Below are positions 18,729 through 31,900 of a DNA stretch of 32,000 nt, piece by piece. Each line of letters opens with the position of its first letter. Position 1 is the stretch's first letter. This DNA is from an uncultured archaeon (GTDB taxonomy: Archaea; Asgardarchaeota; Jordiarchaeia; Jordiarchaeales; Jordiarchaeaceae): contig CAZECW010000150.1 of assembly GCA_964510585.1 (NCBI GenBank), positions 4,239 to 36,238 of the forward strand, read 5' to 3'. Below the pieces are notes generated by a model, which did no database searches, was not told where the DNA came from, and was given only the letters and a program-made list of their open reading frames with translations. The translations under genes and the position numbers were made by a program.

Positions 18729-19964
18729 TTATGTAACCTCTGGTTTTGTTTCATGTTCACAATATTCGTCTCCTTTGGCAACACATTTTACTTCCTGTGT
18801 TGAGCACTTCCTTCCAGTTAGTATTTCGTAGAGTCCGGATATTATTCCGCTAAACCAGAATCCTATGGGTTTTCCAAAGTTTTGGAATTGGTTGCATATG
18901 GGGGAGTTTAAATGTTTTGTGCGGAGCATGTTAGTTGTATCATTGAGTTCGCCAATGAATCGGCCGAATCCTCTTAGTGAATTAAATTTAGTGTATATTG
19001 GTATCGCTTCGCTTAGACTTGGTTTGAATTGTCTCATGAAGTCTTCAACCACTACTCTGCTTCTCTTTTTGCCTTGATTGTAGATTATTTTGTACGTTTC
19101 TTCGTAGCCGAATTTTTCTATCATGGTCTTGATAAATTGTGCCATGTATCTGGTTTCACTTATAATCACTCTTGCACCTAAAAGTTCAACCACACCTCTT
19201 TCAGGCATCTTTAGGTGTTGCTTCATTCTGTGAAATTCTTCCATTATTTCTGTGCTTAATTCGATTCCTCTTCTCCCCACATTATAGAGAATGAGGTCGT
19301 CTACATAGTCCAGTGTGGGTGATTTGGAGACTCTGAGAAATCTTTTATAACTATTGTCCACCTCAAATATTTTAAGCTCAACAACATAATCAAAGATGTG
19401 CTTTAATGTGCTTATTATCGTGTCATCTAACATAGACTTGTTAAAAACGAAAAGCGATGTACCAAACTCACTTAGTAGAATCTTACTCTTGTATATCCAA
19501 TTAATAATTTTGTCTACATCCCTCCCTTTTGACAGCATAATGTTGCTCAAATAACACACATTAAAGCTATGCTCATATTTCTTCATGAATCGAATAGTCC
19601 CATGGAGATAAACGTCAAGATGAAGAATATCTCTTGGATCATCGATGATGAACTTTTCTTCGGATTGGAGTTTTTCGTACATGTTGGTGAAGCCGTCAAC
19701 CAGGAAAAACTTTTTTTCCTTCTCAAATTCTTCAAACCTAGAATTAAAAAACTTTAACCATTCCCTAATCCGCATTGGTGGTAAATCGAGGTCCAGAATT
19801 AATCCATAGTCTCCTTTTTTTAATCTAAAATCCATTATCTGCAAGGGCAAAATCTCACCCATAGTTCCGGTTTCAGTTAACAGTAGGACTTGGGCATTCT
19901 TCTCAAAACCGCCTCGTGTCAAAAAATCGAAGGCAGGAATGCCTGTACTTAACAACTCCATCAC
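18729..19964 (-). CDS. KaiC/RAD55-like (degenerate ATPase) domain fused to V4R domain, paralog 2
   Basis: LSTGIPAFDFLTRGGF, HIFDYVVEL, RFLRVSKS; C-terminal GFGRF, NSPIC, EVKCVAKGDEYCEH. Confidence 0.8.
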   Translation of the reverse strand: MMELLSTGIPAFDFLTRGGFEKNAQVLLLTETGTMGEILPLQIMDFRLKKGDYGLILDLDLPPMRIREWLKFFNSRFEEFEKEKKFFLVDGFTNMYEKLQSEEKFIIDDPRDILHLDVYLHGTIRFMKKYEHSFNVCYLSNIMLSKGRDVDKIINWIYKSKILLSEFGTSLFVFNKSMLDDTIISTLKHIFDYVVELKIFEVDNSYKRFLRVSKSPTLDYVDDLILYNVGRRGIELSTEIMEEFHRMKQHLKMPERGVVELLGARVIISETRYMAQFIKTMIEKFGYEETYKIIYNQGKKRSRVVVEDFMRQFKPSLSEAIPIYTKFNSLRGFGRFIGELNDTTNMLRTKHLNSPICNQFQNFGKPIGFWFSGIISGLYEILTGRKCSTQEVKCVAKGDEYCEHETKPEVT

Positions 19965-20017
19965 TATTCACCCAGGAAGCAAGTAAAAACTCGAGCCTAC
20001 ATTTTCACCTATAGCTT

Positions 20018-21280
20018 TCATACCCGTGAATGTTTTACGATAAATTCGCAATAATCATCCCCCTTTGCTACACATTTTATCTCTTCACACACGTAATGAT
20101 CTCCAGTAAAGATTTCGAAGGCCCCCGCTATTAGTCCCGCCCTGAGCCAACCAGTAGCCTTACCAAGACCTTTGAAATGTGAACAGAAAGGAGAATTTGC
20201 AACTCTAAACCTGTAACTATTTGTTTTTTCGTCAAATGTGAAGTCTGTGGCCCCCTGTCCCCAGAGCTCTGTTAGTTTAGCCAATGATTCAGCCGCCTTT
20301 TTAAGATCAGTTATTTTGAACTGCTCCCTGAAATCTTTAACTAATGGAAAGCCAACTTTTCCCTGATGGTACATAAACTTACTGGCCTCCTCGTATCCGA
20401 ACTCTTCTATCATCATTTCAAAAACCATAGGATAAAATTTTGGGTCCTGAATAATCACTCTCGATTCTAGAAATTCGAGGACGCCTTCTTCTAGCATTTT
20501 CAATTGTTGACTTATATAATCGAAATCCTCAACGGTTTTAGTACTCAGAGCAAATCCTGTGGGTCTTATCTCGTATGGAACAAAATCATCTCGATAAGTA
20601 GGAGATGGTGATTTAACCACCCTCAAATACTTCTGAAACTTTCTGTTCACCTCAAATATTTTAATGTCTAAAACGTAGTCGAACATATGCTCTAGGATTT
20701 TTTGGCTTCTTTCTTCCAGCATACCCTTATCTAAAACAAAGATACACAAGCCGAGCCGGCTAAATCTTGTTATCGCTTGATAAATGAAATTTATGACCTT
20801 GTCCAGTTGCCGTTTCCTAAATAGGAACAAGTTGCTGGAAAACACAAGAATACAAACATTGGGTTTTCGTTGCTCAATTATTTGTGAAAGTTCAGATAAG
20901 TAAGCATTGATGTGGACAATGTCTCTAGGTTTTTCTATTATATGTTCTTCGTTAGAGAGGGGCCCCTCGTACATCCTCGTAAAACCGTCTATCATAAAAA
21001 ACCGTCTATCTTTTTCCAACTCTTCAACGTTGAACTTTTTAAATTTAAACCATTCCCTAATTCTATTTGTGGGAATATCAAAATCTATTATGAAACCCGT
21101 ATCCCCCAGAAATAATCTATTAGCAAACAAGTTAAGAGCCACTATCTCTCCCATGCTTCCCGCTTCGATCAAAAAAAGAACAGAGGAATGCCTGAGAAAT
21201 CCACCGCCACTCAAACCATCTATTTCTAGATTCCCTGAACTAACTAATTCCACAAGGTTCCCCCTTTTGGAAGCTATCAC
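20018..21280 (-). CDS. KaiC/RAD55-like (degenerate ATPase) domain fused to V4R domain, paralog 1
   Basis: VSSGNLEIDGLSGGGF, LEHMFDYVLDI, KYLRVVKS; C-terminal WGQG, NSPFC, AGLIAGAFE, EEIKCVAKGDDYCEF. Confidence 0.8.
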   Translation of the reverse strand: MIASKRGNLVELVSSGNLEIDGLSGGGFLRHSSVLFLIEAGSMGEIVALNLFANRLFLGDTGFIIDFDIPTNRIREWFKFKKFNVEELEKDRRFFMIDGFTRMYEGPLSNEEHIIEKPRDIVHINAYLSELSQIIEQRKPNVCILVFSSNLFLFRKRQLDKVINFIYQAITRFSRLGLCIFVLDKGMLEERSQKILEHMFDYVLDIKIFEVNRKFQKYLRVVKSPSPTYRDDFVPYEIRPTGFALSTKTVEDFDYISQQLKMLEEGVLEFLESRVIIQDPKFYPMVFEMMIEEFGYEEASKFMYHQGKVGFPLVKDFREQFKITDLKKAAESLAKLTELWGQGATDFTFDEKTNSYRFRVANSPFCSHFKGLGKATGWLRAGLIAGAFEIFTGDHYVCEEIKCVAKGDDYCEFIVKHSRV

Positions 21281-22679: not shown

Positions 22680-23031
22680 CCTACTTCACTCTTTAAATTA
22701 AGAAAAAATAAGATCACCTTAAAAAATGTGCTGTACAAAAATATTTGCGTATACTTCTCAGATCAAGAACTGTATGTCTTGGCAACATTTCTCTTTGCTA
22801 TGAAACATATTTTCTTCCTTCACTCGTAGAAACATATGTGGAAGGGTTTGTGTAGAACGATAAAGACCAGAAGGGATGCAGAGGCAAAACTTTATTTATG
22901 AGCGAGAAGCAGATTGAAAACATATTTTTGATTCAAAAACTCTTAACCGTTATATCTTACGAAAAAATTATATCCTCTCTGAAGAATTGTCTCTTGCGAG
23001 TTTATAACACTTTTTAGGAGGTGTTTAAAAA

Positions 23032-24975
23032 ATATCTGAGAAAAGCGATATACGCATAGGTGTCTTTGTCTGCGGCTGAGGCACTAATATATCAGGCGTT
23101 ATCGATGTGAGAGCGTTAAAAGAATACGCTTCTACACTAGCAAACGTTGTTGTGGCTGAGGAGTCAACTTCGCTATGTACAGAAGCAGGCGCAAACCTCA
23201 TCAAAAAGAGCATTAATGAAAATAATTTGAATCGTATAGTAGTGGCGTCCTGCACTCCAATAACCCATGAATCAGTGTTTAAAGCAGTGCTGGAGGATGC
23301 GGGGCTAAATCCTGGATTGCTTGAATTCGTAAACATACGGGAACACGATGCATATGTTCACAGGAATCAACCGGAAGAAGCTCTGGAGAAGGCTAAAGAT
23401 CTAATCAGAGCCGGCGTGGCTCGTGCAAACTTTCTTGAAGAGATCCCCACAAGAGTAATACCCGTGGAGAGAAAATCTCTCGTTATTGGTGGAGGAATTT
23501 CAGGAATTCAAGCAGCTTTGAACCTTGCAAATGATGGTTTTGAAGTCTTTCTAGTTGAAAAGAGCCCTACCATAGGAGGAAAAATGGCTCAACTAGACAG
23601 AATCTTTCCAACGGATGACTGTGCGATATGAATTCTAGGTCCTAAAATGCTTGAAGTAGCAAGAGAACGTAATGTTAAATTATTAACCTACTCAGAAGTG
23701 GAGAAGATAGAAGGGTACTTGGGTAACTTTAAGGTGACAATTAAGAAGAAACCTAGGTACATCATCGCTGAAAAATGCAATGGTTGCGGTGTCTGTGAAG
23801 AGGTATGTCCAGTATTCAGACCAAAAGAGTTTGACGAAAATATGGGAATCAGAAAAGCAATCTACATTCCTTTCCCCCAAGCAGTGCCCAAAATAGCTAT
23901 AATCGATATGGAACACTGTATAAAGTGTCGACTCTGCGAAAAAGTGTGCGAATTTAAAGCAATTGACTTGGACCAAAAGGAAGAAAAAATAGAGTTAAGT
24001 GTAGGTACAATCATAGTCGCAACCGGATATGATCAGTATAATCCAGAAGGAAAATATGGTTATGGCAAGTATGAGAATGTCATTACACAGCTTCAACTGG
24101 AGCGATTACTTGCACCTAATGGACCAACCGGCGGCCACTTGGTGAAATTATCTGATTTGAAGAAACCTGAGAGTATTGTTATGATTCAATGTGTTGGCTC
24201 TAGAGATTTGAATTCCAATCAGTACTGCTCTGACGTATGCTGTATGGTGGCCATAAAGAATGCAAAGCTAATAAAGCAGGAATATCCAGACGTAGAGGTA
24301 ACAATCTGTTACATGGATATAAGGTGCGCAGGGAAGGCTTGGGAAGAATACTATACCAGAGCGAGAGAATATAACATAAAATTCATTAGGGGAAATGTCG
24401 GCTCAGTTAGAGAGAATCCCGAGACAAAGAAATTGATCGTTAGAGTTGAAGATACTCTGAACAGTGAGATAAAAAGGATAGAGGCTGATTTAGTGGTTCT
24501 TTCAGTTGCAATGGTTCCTTCCAAAGACTCCGAAAGGCTAGCAAGCATCCTGCGCCTAGATAGAAGTCCAGGAGGTTTCTATAAAGAGAGACACTCGGTG
24601 CTTAGTCCAATAGATACTAAGGTTCCAGGAATATACGTTGCAGGCGCGGCTCATGGACCCAAATCTGTACCAGAAGCTGTGGCTCATGCCAGTGGTGCAG
24701 CTGCTGCAGCAGCGATACCCCTAATTAAAGGTAGGTACACGATAGAACTCGTATCCGCTACAGTTGATAAAGATCGGTGTAATCTGTGTGAATTGTGCGT
24801 AAATGTATGTCCGATTGGTGCAATTACGGTCAAGGATGGTGCTATTGAGATTAATGAGATAATCTGTAAAGGTTGTGGTTCTTGCGCTTCGATGTGTCCT
24901 TCTAGAGCTATGACTGTGAGGTTTTACAGGCCAAAACAGTTTGAAACGTACATTGATGCTCTGTTTACAACTTAG
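23032..24975 (+). CDS. hdrA: Heterodisulfide reductase subunit A-like selenoprotein (Sec at codons 16 and 200), ~647 aa
   Basis: One continuous frame apart from TGA 23077-23079 (RIGVFVCG-U-GTNISG) and TGA 23629-23631 (TDDCAI-U-ILGPKM), both at conserved Cys positions; FAD motif, QCVGSR, ferredoxin domains; ATA start inferred. Confidence 0.9.
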
Positions 24976-27629: not shown

Positions 27630-28286
27630 ATGATTTATGGTGCTGAGAACTCGAAGGAGGAAAATTTAACTAGCGATGGTGAGCAGTTAACAAAAGAAGA
27701 AGGTAAAGATGTCACTAGCTCTATCCCTGAACAACTTGAGTATTTTTTAGGGCAATCTTTGGGGAAAATATTGGAGGAACAGGCAACCAAAATCAAGTTG
27801 ATAGAAATGAAGGTAAAGTCTCCCATGCGTAAACACTTTATAGGAGAAGTAATCAATGGGGTGTGGGTGCCCAAATTCCCTTTAAAGAGCTATAAACGTG
27901 CTGAGTTAATATTTCAACTAAAGAATTTAAAGGAAGCCTACGAGCTTGTAAAAGCCATTAGGGAGGAAAATGAGAGAATCAAAGAGGAACAAAAGTCACT
28001 CGAGGCCTACGATACATTTAAGGGAGGATACCTAATAACTGCAATCGCAGTGCTATTTGATGATCCCTACAAAACATTTCTTTATATCAATTTCAACCCC
28101 AAAAAGAGAGTCTACTTCATAACTTATCTATGCGAAAAATGGCCTACCGAAGGAGTTCCTCTCTTCCACATAGAAATGGAGAAAAGATTTAAAAAAGCCG
28201 GCTACACCAAAATCGAAGACCGCGAAGAAATCCACAAGAGAGTAAAAATGTACTTACCTGATGAAAGTTTCATATATTTCCGCTAG
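27630..28286 (+). CDS. Hypothetical protein
   Basis: 218-aa ORF with GAGGTG RBS; no family recognised. Confidence 0.7.
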   Translation: MIYGAENSKEENLTSDGEQLTKEEGKDVTSSIPEQLEYFLGQSLGKILEEQATKIKLIEMKVKSPMRKHFIGEVINGVWVPKFPLKSYKRAELIFQLKNLKEAYELVKAIREENERIKEEQKSLEAYDTFKGGYLITAIAVLFDDPYKTFLYINFNPKKRVYFITYLCEKWPTEGVPLFHIEMEKRFKKAGYTKIEDREEIHKRVKMYLPDESFIYFR

Positions 28287-28503: not shown

Positions 28504-30462
28504 CTGCCCACTTTTAGGAACGGTAGTACGTATCTGAGAATAGTTAAACCTGAGAGGCTGACATTGCGTGAGAGGGCTACCCAGATTTTTTCTTATCCCT
28601 TTAATCCTCCTTCGCCTCGGGTTTTGGCTCTGACTGGATTTTTATTGAGTATTGTGATGGGTGTAGTTTCTTATATTCCTGGAGGCAATTTGGAGAGGAT
28701 ATTACTCTATGGGGTTGGGGTGGGTGTTTTTGTGTTTGCGGTTCCAATGTTTATTTCTTCCTATTTACTGTACTTGGTGGGGAAGATTAGGAGCCCCATT
28801 TTTTCACTATCAAGATCATTGTCTTTTTGTTTGATTTTTGTCGCTGTGTGGGAGTTTTTCTTCTTCGCAGGAGCTCTTATTTCCGGAATTATGAACATTC
28901 CCGATCTTTCCTTAATCGCAACATTTTTTGGTGCGGCATTCATTTTTGCACTTTGCCTTGTAATTTTGATAACTATTTCCACCTTTGGAATCCCGCTCAG
29001 TATATTGCTCTCAAGTATTCTCCCCATTACTGGAATAACCTTCCTTGCAATAATTGTGGGCAACCTTAAAACCACTTTCATCGCTCCTTGGCTGGTTACC
29101 TTTATTATCGCAGCCTCTATTCTTGCAACACCCAATTTTGTAGCGTTTCACATAATAGAAAAGCCAATTAAAAAGAGACTAGGAGTTAGTGGTTATGAGC
29201 TGATTCGTGGATTTTTCTTGGAATGGATTCTTAAGGATTCACAAAAGATAGATAGTGTTACTGACAAATTTGGAGAAAAGGCAAGCCTTCCAGCTCTTCT
29301 AGTTGCCTTCAGATCCAAAAAGAACCACAAATTGAAGGGGTTGATATTCTCCTCCTTTATTCATTATGGTCCCTTCAAGGGGGCGGGCTCATCAGCCCTC
29401 CCGCGCCTCCTGGCACAAAAAATCGAGGAGGAAAATGATACTATACTCTCTGTTACTCATGGAGCGTGTACTCACGCCCAGAACCTTTGCAGCGCCAGAG
29501 AAACCCAAAAGGCAATTAAACAGATTGTCGGGAAACTAAAAGAAATCGAATTTAGTGATTCAGCCACACCTTTCCATCGAGTACACGAAAATGAGGCTAA
29601 GATACTCTCTGCGGTCATGGGGAACAGTATAATTATGATTTTCACCCGTTCCCCCGAAATAACAGATGATATCAACCTGAAAGTAGGCTTGTCCGCTTTG
29701 GAAAGAGCCAAGAATGAAATGCAAAAAAGTGGCTTGGAAGGCGATAGCGCGTTCTTCATAGATTCTCATAACTGCATTCTAGACACAGAAGTTCTTGTGG
29801 AACCCAACACTCCTGCAGCTGAAAACATTTTAAACGCTGTTGAAGAATCAATAAGAAAAATGGGATCCCTAAAAAAGGCTACCAAAATTAGATACGGCGT
29901 ATCTAGAACAAGGGTTCCTAGTGTTTATCGTGATTATGGATTGGGGGAGGAAGGGATAACAGTAAACATTATTGAAACTTGGCTGGATGATGAGAAGCTT
30001 GATGTTCCTAAAAGATTCGAGGACAACCATTGGAAGCAGAGGACAGCCTTAATTGTTATTGATGGAAACAATATGATTATAGGGCTGAGAGATAAAATAA
30101 TTAGCCGCCTTCTAGAAGAAAAGCTTGTTGACGAAGTTGAAGTTCTCACCTCTGACACACACACTGTGAATGCACCATCCATCCACCAACCCGACTACTA
30201 TCCCGTAGGCCGAGCAATAAACCATGAAGATTTAATTGAGGAAATAGTGAAAAACACCAGAAGAGCCATCGCAGACTTGGAAGAGGTGGAAATTGGAACA
30301 AAAGTTTTCAACATTGCCAACATTAAAATTTGGACTGATAAAAAGCTAAATGTCTTTTTTAAAGGAATCGAAGAAACAGTAAACACTTTAAAGATAATTA
30401 TCTTACCATTCTTTATCTGCGGAGTTTCTTTAGCCTTAGTATGGCTACTAATCTCAGTTTGA
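28504..30462 (+). CDS. DUF2070 family membrane protein
   Basis: Multiple N-terminal TM helices, IHYGPFKGAGSSALP, HGACTHAQN, IDSHNC, DGNNM, TSDTHTVN; start inferred at CTG 28504 after GAGGTGA (ORF track gives TTG 28564). Confidence 0.8.
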   Translation: MPTFRNGSTYLRIVKPERLTLRERATQIFSYPFNPPSPRVLALTGFLLSIVMGVVSYIPGGNLERILLYGVGVGVFVFAVPMFISSYLLYLVGKIRSPIFSLSRSLSFCLIFVAVWEFFFFAGALISGIMNIPDLSLIATFFGAAFIFALCLVILITISTFGIPLSILLSSILPITGITFLAIIVGNLKTTFIAPWLVTFIIAASILATPNFVAFHIIEKPIKKRLGVSGYELIRGFFLEWILKDSQKIDSVTDKFGEKASLPALLVAFRSKKNHKLKGLIFSSFIHYGPFKGAGSSALPRLLAQKIEEENDTILSVTHGACTHAQNLCSARETQKAIKQIVGKLKEIEFSDSATPFHRVHENEAKILSAVMGNSIIMIFTRSPEITDDINLKVGLSALERAKNEMQKSGLEGDSAFFIDSHNCILDTEVLVEPNTPAAENILNAVEESIRKMGSLKKATKIRYGVSRTRVPSVYRDYGLGEEGITVNIIETWLDDEKLDVPKRFEDNHWKQRTALIVIDGNNMIIGLRDKIISRLLEEKLVDEVEVLTSDTHTVNAPSIHQPDYYPVGRAINHEDLIEEIVKNTRRAIADLEEVEIGTKVFNIANIKIWTDKKLNVFFKGIEETVNTLKIIILPFFICGVSLALVWLLISV

Positions 30463-30469
30463 AAAAATT

Positions 30470-31312
30470 GTGGTCTCCCAAGTGATGAATTTGTCTAATA
30501 ACGAGAAAACATGGTTCGAAAAGGAGTATAAAGTGGCTTGGAAAATAGCTACTGAGGCGATTAACTTAGAGAAAAGGGAGCAATTCAAAGAAGCGAGTGA
30601 GAATTACAGAAAATCGGCTGAAATACTTTCCAAATTACTAGAAAAACCAATAAAGCAAGAATTAGGAAACTCAATTAGAACCAAAATTTATGAGTATAAG
30701 GAAAGAGCCGAACTATTAGAAAGCATTTATGAAAAACAAAAGGAAGGTATGCAACCCCAGAAAACTGAAACCATGAGTATGGTTTTGCACGGACCAGAAA
30801 TCGGCTTAAAGGCAATCCAAATCTTGAGGGAGGCATCAAGCGAAATAATGATTATGAGCTACCTGCTCTTCGAAGTTAAAACCCTAAGGGCAGAAAATAA
30901 AATCTACCGAATCGACCTTCTCGACACCCTTATCCAAAAATCGAAAAACGGAGTAAATATTAGAATAATCACCTCTCCACCAGACGTTCAAGTATTGGGA
31001 AAAAATGCCTGGAAGCAGGGCAACGCCCTCACAAAGCTATTATCCGAATCTAACATACAAATTAAGCTTTGCAGCTTTGCCCACACCAAATTCATAGTTG
31101 CAGACGGATTAGTGGTCTTTCGAGGCAGCGCCAACCTAACCAGCAGCGGTCTTTCCGGTAAAGGAGACGTGGCCGAGGCAACAAATGACGAGCGCATCAT
31201 AAATTACTACTCCACAATATTCGAAGAACGATGGCGCAACACGAGTAAGAGTTGTCAAGATTGTACCGAAAAATCCTGCCTCAAAGAATATCAGATTTCC
31301 AAGCAACAATAA
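30470..31312 (+). CDS. MIT domain + phospholipase D-like (single HKD) domain protein
   Basis: N-terminal AWKIATEAINLEKREQFKEASENYRKSAEIL...IRTKIYEYKERAELL (MIT pattern); C-terminal HTKFIVAD and GSANLT; terminal CQDCTEKSC. Confidence 0.8.
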   Translation: MVSQVMNLSNNEKTWFEKEYKVAWKIATEAINLEKREQFKEASENYRKSAEILSKLLEKPIKQELGNSIRTKIYEYKERAELLESIYEKQKEGMQPQKTETMSMVLHGPEIGLKAIQILREASSEIMIMSYLLFEVKTLRAENKIYRIDLLDTLIQKSKNGVNIRIITSPPDVQVLGKNAWKQGNALTKLLSESNIQIKLCSFAHTKFIVADGLVVFRGSANLTSSGLSGKGDVAEATNDERIINYYSTIFEERWRNTSKSCQDCTEKSCLKEYQISKQQ

Positions 31313-31775: not shown

Positions 31776-31854
31776 ACTCACCAATCCGGGTAATTGGGCA
31801 AGGTAAACCCTGTTCTTTAAAACAAATATAAATAAACCTAAGTTTTACAAAACC

Positions 31855-31900
31855 TTGGCGAGAAAGCCCCCGACTTCAAGTCGTGGGGATGAATCGCCAA
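31855..31900. mobile_element. IS200/IS605-family-like terminal hairpin (element or MITE probably continues beyond the window)
   Basis: TTGGCGA-gaaag-CCCCCGACT-tca-AGTCGtGGGG-atgaa-TCGCCAA nested imperfect hairpin. Confidence 0.55.

What the first reader, a model, noticed from the sequence alone, without database searches (positions are those of the whole stretch)
30470..31312. Archaeal MIT-PLD fusion with the architecture of eukaryotic MITD1 but an intact HKD motif
Seen: residues ~20-88 fit the MIT three-helix pattern (A..A...E....A...Y....E.L...K..EY..RAE.L); the C-terminal domain has HTKFIVAD (His205, nt 31082) and GSANLT, then a C-x2-C-x4-C tail. Known: MIT domains bind ESCRT-III tails (Vps4/CdvC), and human MITD1 is MIT + a PLD-fold domain lacking the canonical HKD that acts in cytokinetic abscission; single-HKD proteins dimerise as nucleases or phospholipases. 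Inference: an ESCRT-III-recruited lipase or nuclease, either a catalytically active MITD1 precursor or a convergent fusion. It lies 7 nt after DUF2070 and is probably co-transcribed.
Basis: partly seen in the sequence, partly recalled or inferred. Interest (0 to 1): 0.85.

Follow-up and report, generated by a model that had tools for sequence, protein, structure and literature searches.

The report
Asgard MIT-tethered, zinc-stapled Nuc-like enzyme
An Asgard archaeon encodes a conserved protein that joins an MIT domain (the module that grips ESCRT-III membrane-cutting filaments) to an intact Nuc-like phosphodiesterase domain with a predicted zinc site; it has the layout of human MITD1 but most likely arose independently, and it likely acts as a nuclease brought to ESCRT-III, which is untested.

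Summary
The ORF encodes MIT (Pfam 36 bits, cut-off 30) plus a single-HKD PLD domain (69 bits), under purifying selection and present in 6 of 6 genomes of the genus (one copy broken). The MITD1-precursor reading is very unlikely. Human MITD1's C-domain matches a bacterial BrxL-type MIT_C profile at 114 bits but not this protein's PLD family, and structurally Nuc scores Z 19.7 against 6.9 for MITD1. A tree test was inconclusive. It co-occurs with the CxxC tail in every motif checked (23 both, 166 neither, 0 single) and marks an unnamed four-cysteine PLD subfamily, widespread in bacteria and Asgard archaea, from which this fusion derives. The MIT surface has Lys/Glu at the VPS4 L64/E68 positions, like Sulfolobus Vps4 and unlike Asgard Vps4, so MIM2-type rather than MIM1 docking is predicted. 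A second Asgard family keeps a relative with a degenerate active site. Best reading: a dimeric nuclease likely tethered to ESCRT-III tails, convergent on MITD1. Binding and activity are untested; the complex predictor was unavailable. The scan noted this fusion before in other genomes.

The parts
30470..31312 (+). MIT-PLD open reading frame (280 aa from GTG; likely 273 aa from TTG 30491)
   Evidence: dN/dS 0.06-0.18 in both domains
30482..30493 (+). GTGAT Shine-Dalgarno-like site, 4-nt spacer and likely TTG start codon (SD role recalled; the 16S tail was not found in the assembly)
   Evidence: kept in 6 of 6 genus genomes
30497..30742 (+). MIT three-helix bundle, residues 10-91 (Pfam match 23-84)
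30698..30712 (+). K77 and E81, at the positions of VPS4A L64 and E68 (MIM1 groove); Sulfolobus-like, unlike Asgard Vps4
30767..31243 (+). single-HKD PLD-fold domain of Nuc/NucT type, residues about 100-258
31070..31072 (+). C201, four residues before the catalytic His; predicted fourth zinc ligand
   Evidence: invariant in 97 of 97 aligned rows; co-occurs with the tail
31082..31168 (+). catalytic motif H205-x-K207-x4-D212-x6-G219-S220-x-N222 and acid D233
   Evidence: H 17 of 18, the others 18 of 18 in the family; the D233 column is E 69 / D 28 of 97
31253..31279 (+). C262-x2-C265-x4-C270 tail; predicted zinc site with C201
   Evidence: ordered in the deep-alignment model, pLDDT 85-91
28564..30462 (+). 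upstream DUF2070 membrane-protein gene; adjacent in 6 of 6 genus genomes, not in family f12

Best explanation
The gene encodes a soluble protein with a Vps4-type MIT domain fused to an intact Nuc-type single-HKD phosphodiesterase domain that is predicted to be stapled by a four-cysteine zinc site; it likely works as a homodimeric nuclease that its MIT domains would tether to proline-rich (MIM2-type) ESCRT-III tails, and it most likely arose independently of MITD1. Shown: the domain layout, intact catalytic motif, purifying selection, fold closest to Nuc/NucT, descent of the PLD domain from a four-cysteine PLD subfamily, and membership of MITD1's C-domain in a different (HDR, MIT_C) family. Inferred: zinc binding by C201/C262/C265/C270; a homodimer with one shared two-His active site and a phosphohistidine intermediate (established for Nuc, recalled); a nucleic-acid substrate; docking through the MIT H1/H3 groove on the LPSAP motif of ESCRT-IIIA; and a role in clearing DNA or RNA at a membrane neck or vesicle. 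My odds for the steps: not an MITD1 orthologue 0.9, catalytically active 0.85, nuclease rather than lipid enzyme 0.65, binds ESCRT-III 0.55.
For: Enzyme: HxK(x4)D(x6)GSxN plus the acid D233 are conserved. dN/dS is 0.06-0.12 in the PLD domain. The pLDDT-95 model matches Nuc at Z 19.7, NucT 19.3, Zucchini 16.9 and MITD1 6.9 among 48,161 chains. No hydrophobic anchor is seen (maximum 19-residue hydropathy 1.29). Among 80 bacterial four-Cys PLD loci, neighbours include WYL regulators (9), DEDDh exonucleases (7), GmrSD-type nucleases (4) and RtcB (4). Zinc site: C(-4) and the tail CxxC co-occur, 23 both / 166 neither / 0 single among 189 motifs in 149 representative hits, and 80 of 80 bacterial members have all four Cys. 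MIT: the family profile hits Vps4 MITs at 24-31 bits (Sulfolobus at 15-21) and MITD1 MITs at 19-22; hhalign to Asgard Vps4 MIT gives 98%. A27, E75, Y76, R79 and L83 match the commonest residue in Asgard Vps4, and I31 and K72 are similar. K77/E81 match Sulfolobus Vps4, which uses MIM2 while CdvBs lack MIM1 (PMC7240154 passages). The genome has Vps4 and two ESCRT-III genes, and the ESCRT-IIIA tail has LPSAP, which fits the MIM2 core of PMC8970359. Loki ESCRT-III binds DNA in vitro (preprint 10.1101/2021.11.29.470303, passages). Origin: the 13 MIT-bearing PLDs form one group (93/75) inside a starred 28-row four-Cys clade (96/94) whose other members lack MIT.
Against: The gene is not near the ESCRT genes: it lies on contig C150, Vps4 on C140 and ESCRT-III on C187. 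The MIM1 site is remodelled: the L64 position is K/R/Q in 13 of 13 against hydrophobic in 39 of 39 Asgard Vps4, and the E68 position is E in 13 of 13 against K in 35 of 39, while Asgard ESCRT-IIIA tails mostly carry D/E (or Q) at the position where eukaryotic MIM1 has Arg (the pairing is recalled). Y76, R79 and L83 may be core residues and so say little about binding. Invariant W24 and aromatic Y74 differ from Vps4 and hint at another partner. Two of 19 human MIT domains bind no ESCRT-III (PMC9477494 passages). The fusion was not found in the five genomes of the sister family f2, so it is dispensable for ESCRT function. Zucchini/MitoPLD shows that this fold can act on lipids as well as nucleic acids (PDB titles). 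Most bacterial loci have no recurring neighbour, and those loci belong to the sister subclade.
Confidence: 0.35

Rival explanations
1. An active Nuc-like phosphodiesterase whose MIT domain was taken from Vps4 but now binds a partner other than ESCRT-III (for example the cytoplasmic part of DUF2070, a proline-rich tether protein, or its own dimer).
For: The MIM1 groove is remodelled, and invariant W24 and aromatic 74 are absent from Vps4. The gene is fixed next to DUF2070 in 6 of 6 genomes and is not next to ESCRT genes. The same PLD subfamily is fused to many unrelated N-termini in Asgard archaea. Some human MIT domains bind non-ESCRT partners.
Against: The H1/H3 face matches Asgard Vps4 and the K/E pair matches a known MIM2 binder. 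The MIT domain is under purifying selection as strong as the enzyme domain. The DUF2070 linkage is absent in family f12.
Confidence: 0.3
2. An ESCRT-III-recruited lipid enzyme (MitoPLD-like hydrolase or transphosphatidylase) that changes headgroups at a constricting membrane neck.
For: Zucchini/MitoPLD is the third-best fold (Z 16.9). Lipid PLDs score highest against the family profile, though as two-domain proteins with summed scores. The upstream gene is a membrane protein, and ESCRT-III acts on membranes.
Against: Nuc and NucT fit better (Z 19.7, 19.3). There is no membrane anchor. Recurring neighbours of bacterial relatives are nucleic-acid enzymes and regulators, and no lipid gene recurred among the clusters identified.
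Confidence: 0.2
3. A true catalytically intact precursor (orthologue) of eukaryotic MITD1.
For: It has the same domain order and size. MITD1 clusters rank first by language-model features for the whole protein (0.86, below the 0.9 lead threshold). The AU test does not reject grouping with MIT_C (p 0.54 and 0.43). Family f12 shows that the active site can decay.
Against: PF16565 is not hit and is over cut-off in 0 of 301 Asgard genomes against 5 of 201 bacterial genomes. A bacterial MIT_C profile hits MITD1 at 113.6 bits, E 7e-32; the query's PLD-family profile does not list it. hhalign MIT_C vs family gives 0.5%, against 99.2% for four-Cys PLDs vs family. VIA Z is 6.9. With the PLD part alone all 30 atlas hits are PLDc_2. 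Full-length matches occur in only 2 of 30 Asgard family codes, and Heimdallarchaeota-labelled relatives lack MIT.
Confidence: 0.05

Closest known systems
Nuc (Salmonella, PDB 1byr/1bys) and NucT (Helicobacter pylori, PDB 6ehi), single-HKD PLD-superfamily nucleases
   Same: Fold (Z 19.7 and 19.3, rmsd 1.7-1.9 over 142-145 residues) and a single HxK(x4)D(x6)GSxN motif with a downstream acid.
   Different: About 20% identity and far below the NucT equivalog cut-off (22.7 vs 211 bits). It has an N-terminal MIT domain instead of an export signal, a four-cysteine site, and Asp rather than Glu at the downstream acid (Glu in Nuc is recalled).
Human MITD1 (MIT + MIT_C PF16565; PDB 2ymb, 4a5x, 4a5z)
   Same: Domain order MIT then PLD-fold, similar length, and Glu at the E73/E68 position.
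   Different: The C-domain is HDR/GRGLD-type and groups with bacterial BrxL C-termini, with Z 6.9 to this model. The M69 position is Lys here. This protein has an intact HxK and four cysteines.
Vps4/CdvC MIT domains (PF04212; PDB 2w2u, 2v6y, 2v6x, 2jq9)
   Same: Three-helix bundle over the Pfam cut-off; likely source of the domain; Sulfolobus-like K/E pair in helix 3.
   Different: No AAA ATPase. The MIM1 groove differs from the genome's own Vps4 and from the other Asgard Vps4 sequences examined.
Zucchini/PLD6/MitoPLD (PDB 4ggj, 4gel)
   Same: Single-HKD PLD fold (Z 15.6-16.9). A zinc-bound, dimeric enzyme with nuclease and lipid activities (recalled).
   Different: Zucchini's CCCH zinc wing is an internal insertion and it has a mitochondrial anchor (recalled). 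Here the cysteines are one before the catalytic His plus a C-terminal tail, and there is an MIT domain.
Defence-system PLD proteins DrmC (DISARM) and DpdK
   Same: PLDc_2-like domain; weak profile hits.
   Different: Far below cut-offs (32 vs 133 and 27.8 vs 100 bits), and no defence genes were found in the window.

Membership tests
MIT domain (PF04212) | Profile score over the curated cut-off | tested here: met
   36.4 vs 30 bits; 45.7 bits vs best shuffle 10.5 with an Asgard Vps4 profile
MIT domain (PF04212) | Three-helix bundle superimposable on solved MITs | tested here: met
   helices 10-35, 39-56, 63-91; VPS4B MIT Z 12.3, rmsd 2.7, 82 aligned
MIT domain (PF04212) | Canonical MIM1 site (hydrophobic L64 and a charge at 68 that fits the cognate tail) | tested here: not met
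   K/R/Q in 13 of 13 vs hydrophobic in 39 of 39 Asgard Vps4; E in 13 of 13 vs K in 35 of 39
MIT domain (PF04212) | MIM2 (H1/H3) groove | tested here: inconclusive
   positions match or resemble Asgard Vps4, but groove-lining residues are recalled and several may be core
MIT domain (PF04212) | Binds an ESCRT-III tail | not tested
   the complex predictor was not available
MITD1 family | N-terminal MIT followed by a PLD-fold domain | tested here: met
MITD1 family | C-domain belongs to MIT_C (PF16565) | tested here: not met
   no hit at E<=0.1 or in the own genome; positive control 5 of 201 bacterial genomes at 130-166 bits
MITD1 family | HDR and GRGLD motifs in place of HKD and GSxN | tested here: not met
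   query has HTK and GSAN; MITD1 and bacterial MIT_C have HDR/HAR and GRGLD/DRGLD
MITD1 family | Groups with MIT_C in a domain tree | tested here: inconclusive
   free trees keep them apart but AU p is 0.54 and 0.43; only bacterial MIT_C proxies, no eukaryotic MITD1 row
Nuc-type single-HKD PLD nucleases | One HxK(x4)D(x6)GSxN motif with a downstream acid | tested here: met
   H205, K207, D212, G219, S220, N222, D233
Nuc-type single-HKD PLD nucleases | Fold closest to Nuc/NucT | tested here: met
   Z 19.7 and 19.3, ranks 1-2 of 48,161 chains
Nuc-type single-HKD PLD nucleases | Homodimer with a shared active site | not tested
   inferred from the single motif
Nuc-type single-HKD PLD nucleases | Cleaves nucleic acids | not testable with these tools
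   needs an assay; gene neighbours of bacterial relatives are only suggestive
NucT, DrmC and DpdK equivalogs (NCBIfam) | Score over the equivalog cut-off | tested here: not met
   22.7/211, 32/133 and 27.8/100 bits

The most novel reading that the evidence does not exclude
Asgard ESCRT-III tails already recruit enzymes other than Vps4 through an MIT code: this protein is a zinc-stapled nuclease docked on MIM2-type tails to clear nucleic acid at membrane necks. Archaea and eukaryotes independently built MIT-PLD proteins from two different PLD families, and in both the canonical HKD site was later altered (HxN in Asgard family f12, HDR in MITD1).
Probability: 0.3. Interest if true: 0.8.

Novelty: new variant of a known kind. 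Interest (0 to 1): 0.5.

Why it matters
In the papers I read, the archaeal MIT domain is discussed only as part of Vps4/CdvC, whereas human cells have many MIT-tagged enzymes. An archaeal MIT fused to an intact enzyme makes it directly testable whether cofactor recruitment by ESCRT-III tails predates eukaryotes. The result also removes a false eukaryotic-signature call: MITD1's PLD domain traces to bacterial defence-type MIT_C domains, not to this gene. It defines an unnamed four-cysteine PLD subfamily with hundreds of prokaryotic members and no assigned substrate.

Tried and rejected
TPR or generic coil: rejected. MITD1 orthology through the PLD domain: rejected on profiles and structure, but the AU test was uninformative. 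The search for eukaryotic MITD1 sequences with a bacterial MIT_C query returned 85 proteins, none with a MIT domain, so bacterial proxies were used. Complex prediction of MIT with the ESCRT-IIIA tail was not available, so there is no verdict on binding. Expression: one 248-nt contig in one RNA library covers 30443-30691; the other two runs are probably DNA; this is no evidence of transcription or co-transcription. The promoter/terminator scan is bacterial-type and at chance level. The 16S 3' end was not found in the assembly. Defence-system membership was rejected. Two MIT-bearing ORFs of about 285 aa in family f27 proved to be MIT + proline-rich linker + another domain, not PLD. Family f7 hits spanning profile positions 30-239 lack the four cysteines and have a different N-terminus. 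The careful mixture-model tree did not finish. Four long-branch rows were left out, and the 8 MIT_C rows and 6 more non-Cys rows were left out. Literature: no paper held MITD1+Asgard, MIT domain+phospholipase D+Asgard+ESCRT, Asgard+phospholipase D+MIT+eukaryotic signature, or Zucchini+Nuc+phospholipase D superfamily+zinc+archaea. Hadders et al. 2012 is not held. No supplements were read; asCOG tables (for example those of PMC10936438) may already list this family.

Full report
Observation. The ORF at 30470-31312 (+) is real. Pfam gives MIT at residues 23-84 (36.4 bits, cut-off 30) and PLDc_2 at 116-255 (68.9 bits, cut-off 27); MIT_C (PF16565) is not among the six families at E<=0.1, and the TPR hit is below cut-off. 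A profile of 39 Asgard Vps4 MIT domains scores the N-terminus at 45.7 bits against at most 10.5 for 500 shuffles. The model has three helices there and aligns to VPS4B MIT at Z 12.3. The start is likely TTG 30491, after a GTGAT site kept in 6 of 6 genomes.

Distribution. Seventeen homologues at 60-93% identity were found; six of the seven with a lineage name are labelled Jordarchaeaceae, Freyarchaeota or Freyarchaeum, and one Lokiarchaeia. The gene is in 6 of 6 genomes of the genus, always after DUF2070; one copy (G003) has an in-frame TAA. It was not found in the five genomes of the sister family. dN/dS is 0.07-0.18 for MIT and 0.06-0.12 for PLD in the pairs where dS was not saturated (8 and 9 of 10). 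Among 301 Asgard genomes, 72 had a match to a broader profile, but full-length matches were confined to families f1 and f12 (at most 8 candidates scored per genome). Family f12 (matches in 18 of 19 genomes) has two paralogues. In all 15 ORFs of the first type that I read, the motif is H-F-N and the GSAN motif is degenerate; their N-terminus matches Asgard Vps4 MIT by hhalign (93.8%) but not Pfam MIT. All 8 ORFs of the second type keep H-I-K behind a different helical N-terminus.

The enzyme domain. H205, K207, D212, G219, S220, N222 and D233 are kept in 17-18 of 18 family members, and the D233 column is E or D in 97 of 97 wider relatives. A 97-sequence model of the domain reached pLDDT 95 and pTM 0.91, with the cysteine tail ordered. 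Against 48,161 chains it ranks Nuc (Z 19.7), NucT (19.3) and Zucchini (16.9) first, and MITD1 26th (Z 6.9, rmsd 3.9). C201, four residues before His205, is invariant with C262 and C265. Among 189 HKD-type motifs in 149 of the 150 representative hits, 23 have both the C(-4) and the tail CxxC, 166 have neither and none has one alone (kin are not independent). In Asgard archaea the same domain is stand-alone or fused to zinc ribbons, large N-terminal regions or helical domains, including Loki-, Hel- and Heimdallarchaeota-labelled proteins without MIT. In a PLD-only tree the 13 MIT-bearing rows form one group (93/75, not starred) inside a starred four-Cys clade (96/94), which suggests one fusion event.

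MITD1. PF16565 is over cut-off in 0 of 301 Asgard genomes and in 5 of 201 genomes of a bacterial phylum at 130-166 bits, four of them C-termini of 670-700 aa ORFs. Homologues are annotated as BrxL or Lon-like. A profile of those five hits human MITD1 at 113.6 bits with HDR and GRGLD aligned. The query's PLD-family profile lists 55 PDB sequences at E<=10 without MITD1, and the full family profile hits 2ymb only through MIT, below Vps4. hhalign gives 0.5% for MIT_C vs the family and 99.2% for stand-alone four-Cys PLDs vs the family. Published passages agree: MIT_C's HDR motif occurs in BrxL (PMC12065111; PMC12839542), and DruE has MITD1-like PLD domains with nuclease activity (preprint 10.64898/2026.05.13.724313). 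Against this reading, the AU test did not reject a MIT-PLD + MIT_C clade (p 0.54, 0.43), and language-model features of the whole protein rank MITD1 clusters first at 0.86; with the PLD part alone all 30 hits are PLDc_2. The weight of evidence favours convergence.

ESCRT link. The genome has Vps4 (C140) and two ESCRT-III genes (C187), none on the finding's contig. VPS4 L64/E68 (MITD1 M69/E73) are the key MIM1 contacts (PMC3496609 passages). They align to K77/E81 here: K/R/Q and E in 13 of 13 family members, but hydrophobic in 39 of 39 and K in 35 of 39 Asgard Vps4. Asgard ESCRT-IIIA tails mostly have D/E at the MIM1 position where eukaryotes have Arg (the Arg and its pairing are recalled), so the MIM1 mode looks mismatched. 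The K/E pair is that of Sulfolobus Vps4, a MIM2 binder (PMC7240154 passages). The H1/H3 face, where type 2 motifs bind (PMC9477494 passages), resembles Asgard Vps4, and the ESCRT-IIIA tail has LPSAP, fitting the published MIM2 core. This is sequence inference only; the complex predictor was not available.

Mechanism. Most likely two subunits form one Nuc-like active site and cut a phosphodiester through a phosphohistidine (established for the family, recalled), while two MIT domains give avidity for ESCRT-III polymers. I favour a nucleic-acid substrate. The fold is closest to Nuc and NucT, there is no membrane anchor, and recurring neighbours of the 80 bacterial relatives are WYL regulators (9), DEDDh exonucleases (7), GmrSD (4) and RtcB (4). 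Loki ESCRT-III also binds DNA (preprint passages). The rivals are a non-ESCRT partner (0.3), a lipid enzyme (0.2) and an MITD1 precursor (0.05).

Novelty. Four literature searches found no paper on this fusion or subfamily, and passage searches of two ESCRT surveys found no phospholipase (PMC10936438; PMC8970359). All ten papers were seen as keyword passages only; PMC11962514 added nothing on evolution; no supplement was read. The scan's own notes record the same fusion in other genomes and the degenerate relative; these are unchecked AI notes, one marked as partly fallen. Verdict: a real, unpublished-looking archaeal MIT-enzyme architecture and a new variant of known parts, not an MITD1 ancestor; interest 0.5.

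Noticed in passing
L032:3348-3974 (+) (G000:C187), about 3.7 kb from an ESCRT-III gene: A second non-Vps4 MIT-like protein in this genome (208 aa; Pfam MIT 23.1 bits, below cut-off). An earlier scan note calls it MIT plus degenerate HEPN.
   Followed up: partly
L065:2783-3628 (-) and L066:2318-3190 (-) (family f27): MIT (42 bits in L065) + long proline-rich linker + helical C-terminal domain: another Asgard MIT fusion without ATPase.
   Followed up: partly
Asgard Vps4 loci L012-L064 and ESCRT-IIIA tails: Apparent charge swap relative to eukaryotes: Vps4 has Lys at the E68 position (35 of 39) and ESCRT-IIIA MIM1 mostly has Asp/Glu where eukaryotes have Arg (eukaryotic residue recalled).
   Followed up: partly
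L023:6095-6928 (-) and other f12 loci: The degenerate (H-F-N) MIT-like PLD gene lies between an XPB-like helicase gene (divergent) and a longin-like/wHTH gene preceded by an aminoacyl-tRNA synthetase-like gene and a small GTPase; a catalytically intact paralogue lies elsewhere, a possible heterodimer partner.
   Followed up: partly
L118-L197 (bacterial genomes): An unnamed stand-alone PLD subfamily, mostly about 170-210 aa, with C-x3-HxK and CxxC-x4-C, in at least 575 loci, often near WYL, DEDDh, RtcB or GmrSD genes.
   Followed up: partly
L029:6573-7440 (G003:C88): The orthologue in one sister genome has an in-frame stop near its start and a divergent stretch around residue 160: likely decaying or an assembly error.
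   Followed up: partly
window 18729-21280 (-): Tandem pair of KaiC-like ATPase + V4R domain genes (411 and 420 aa).
   Followed up: no
window 23025-24975 (+): An HdrA-like FAD/4Fe-4S region is split over two ORFs (23107-23631 and 23647-24975); a recoded stop (selenocysteine) or a break was not examined.
   Followed up: no
window 27630-28286 (+): A 218-aa ORF with no Pfam, NCBIfam or PADLOC hit, kept upstream of DUF2070 in at least three sister genomes.
   Followed up: no
window 31860-31900: A short inverted-repeat-like stretch just before the contig end; the laid contigs diverge from the window at 31776, which may mark a mobile-element end.
   Followed up: no
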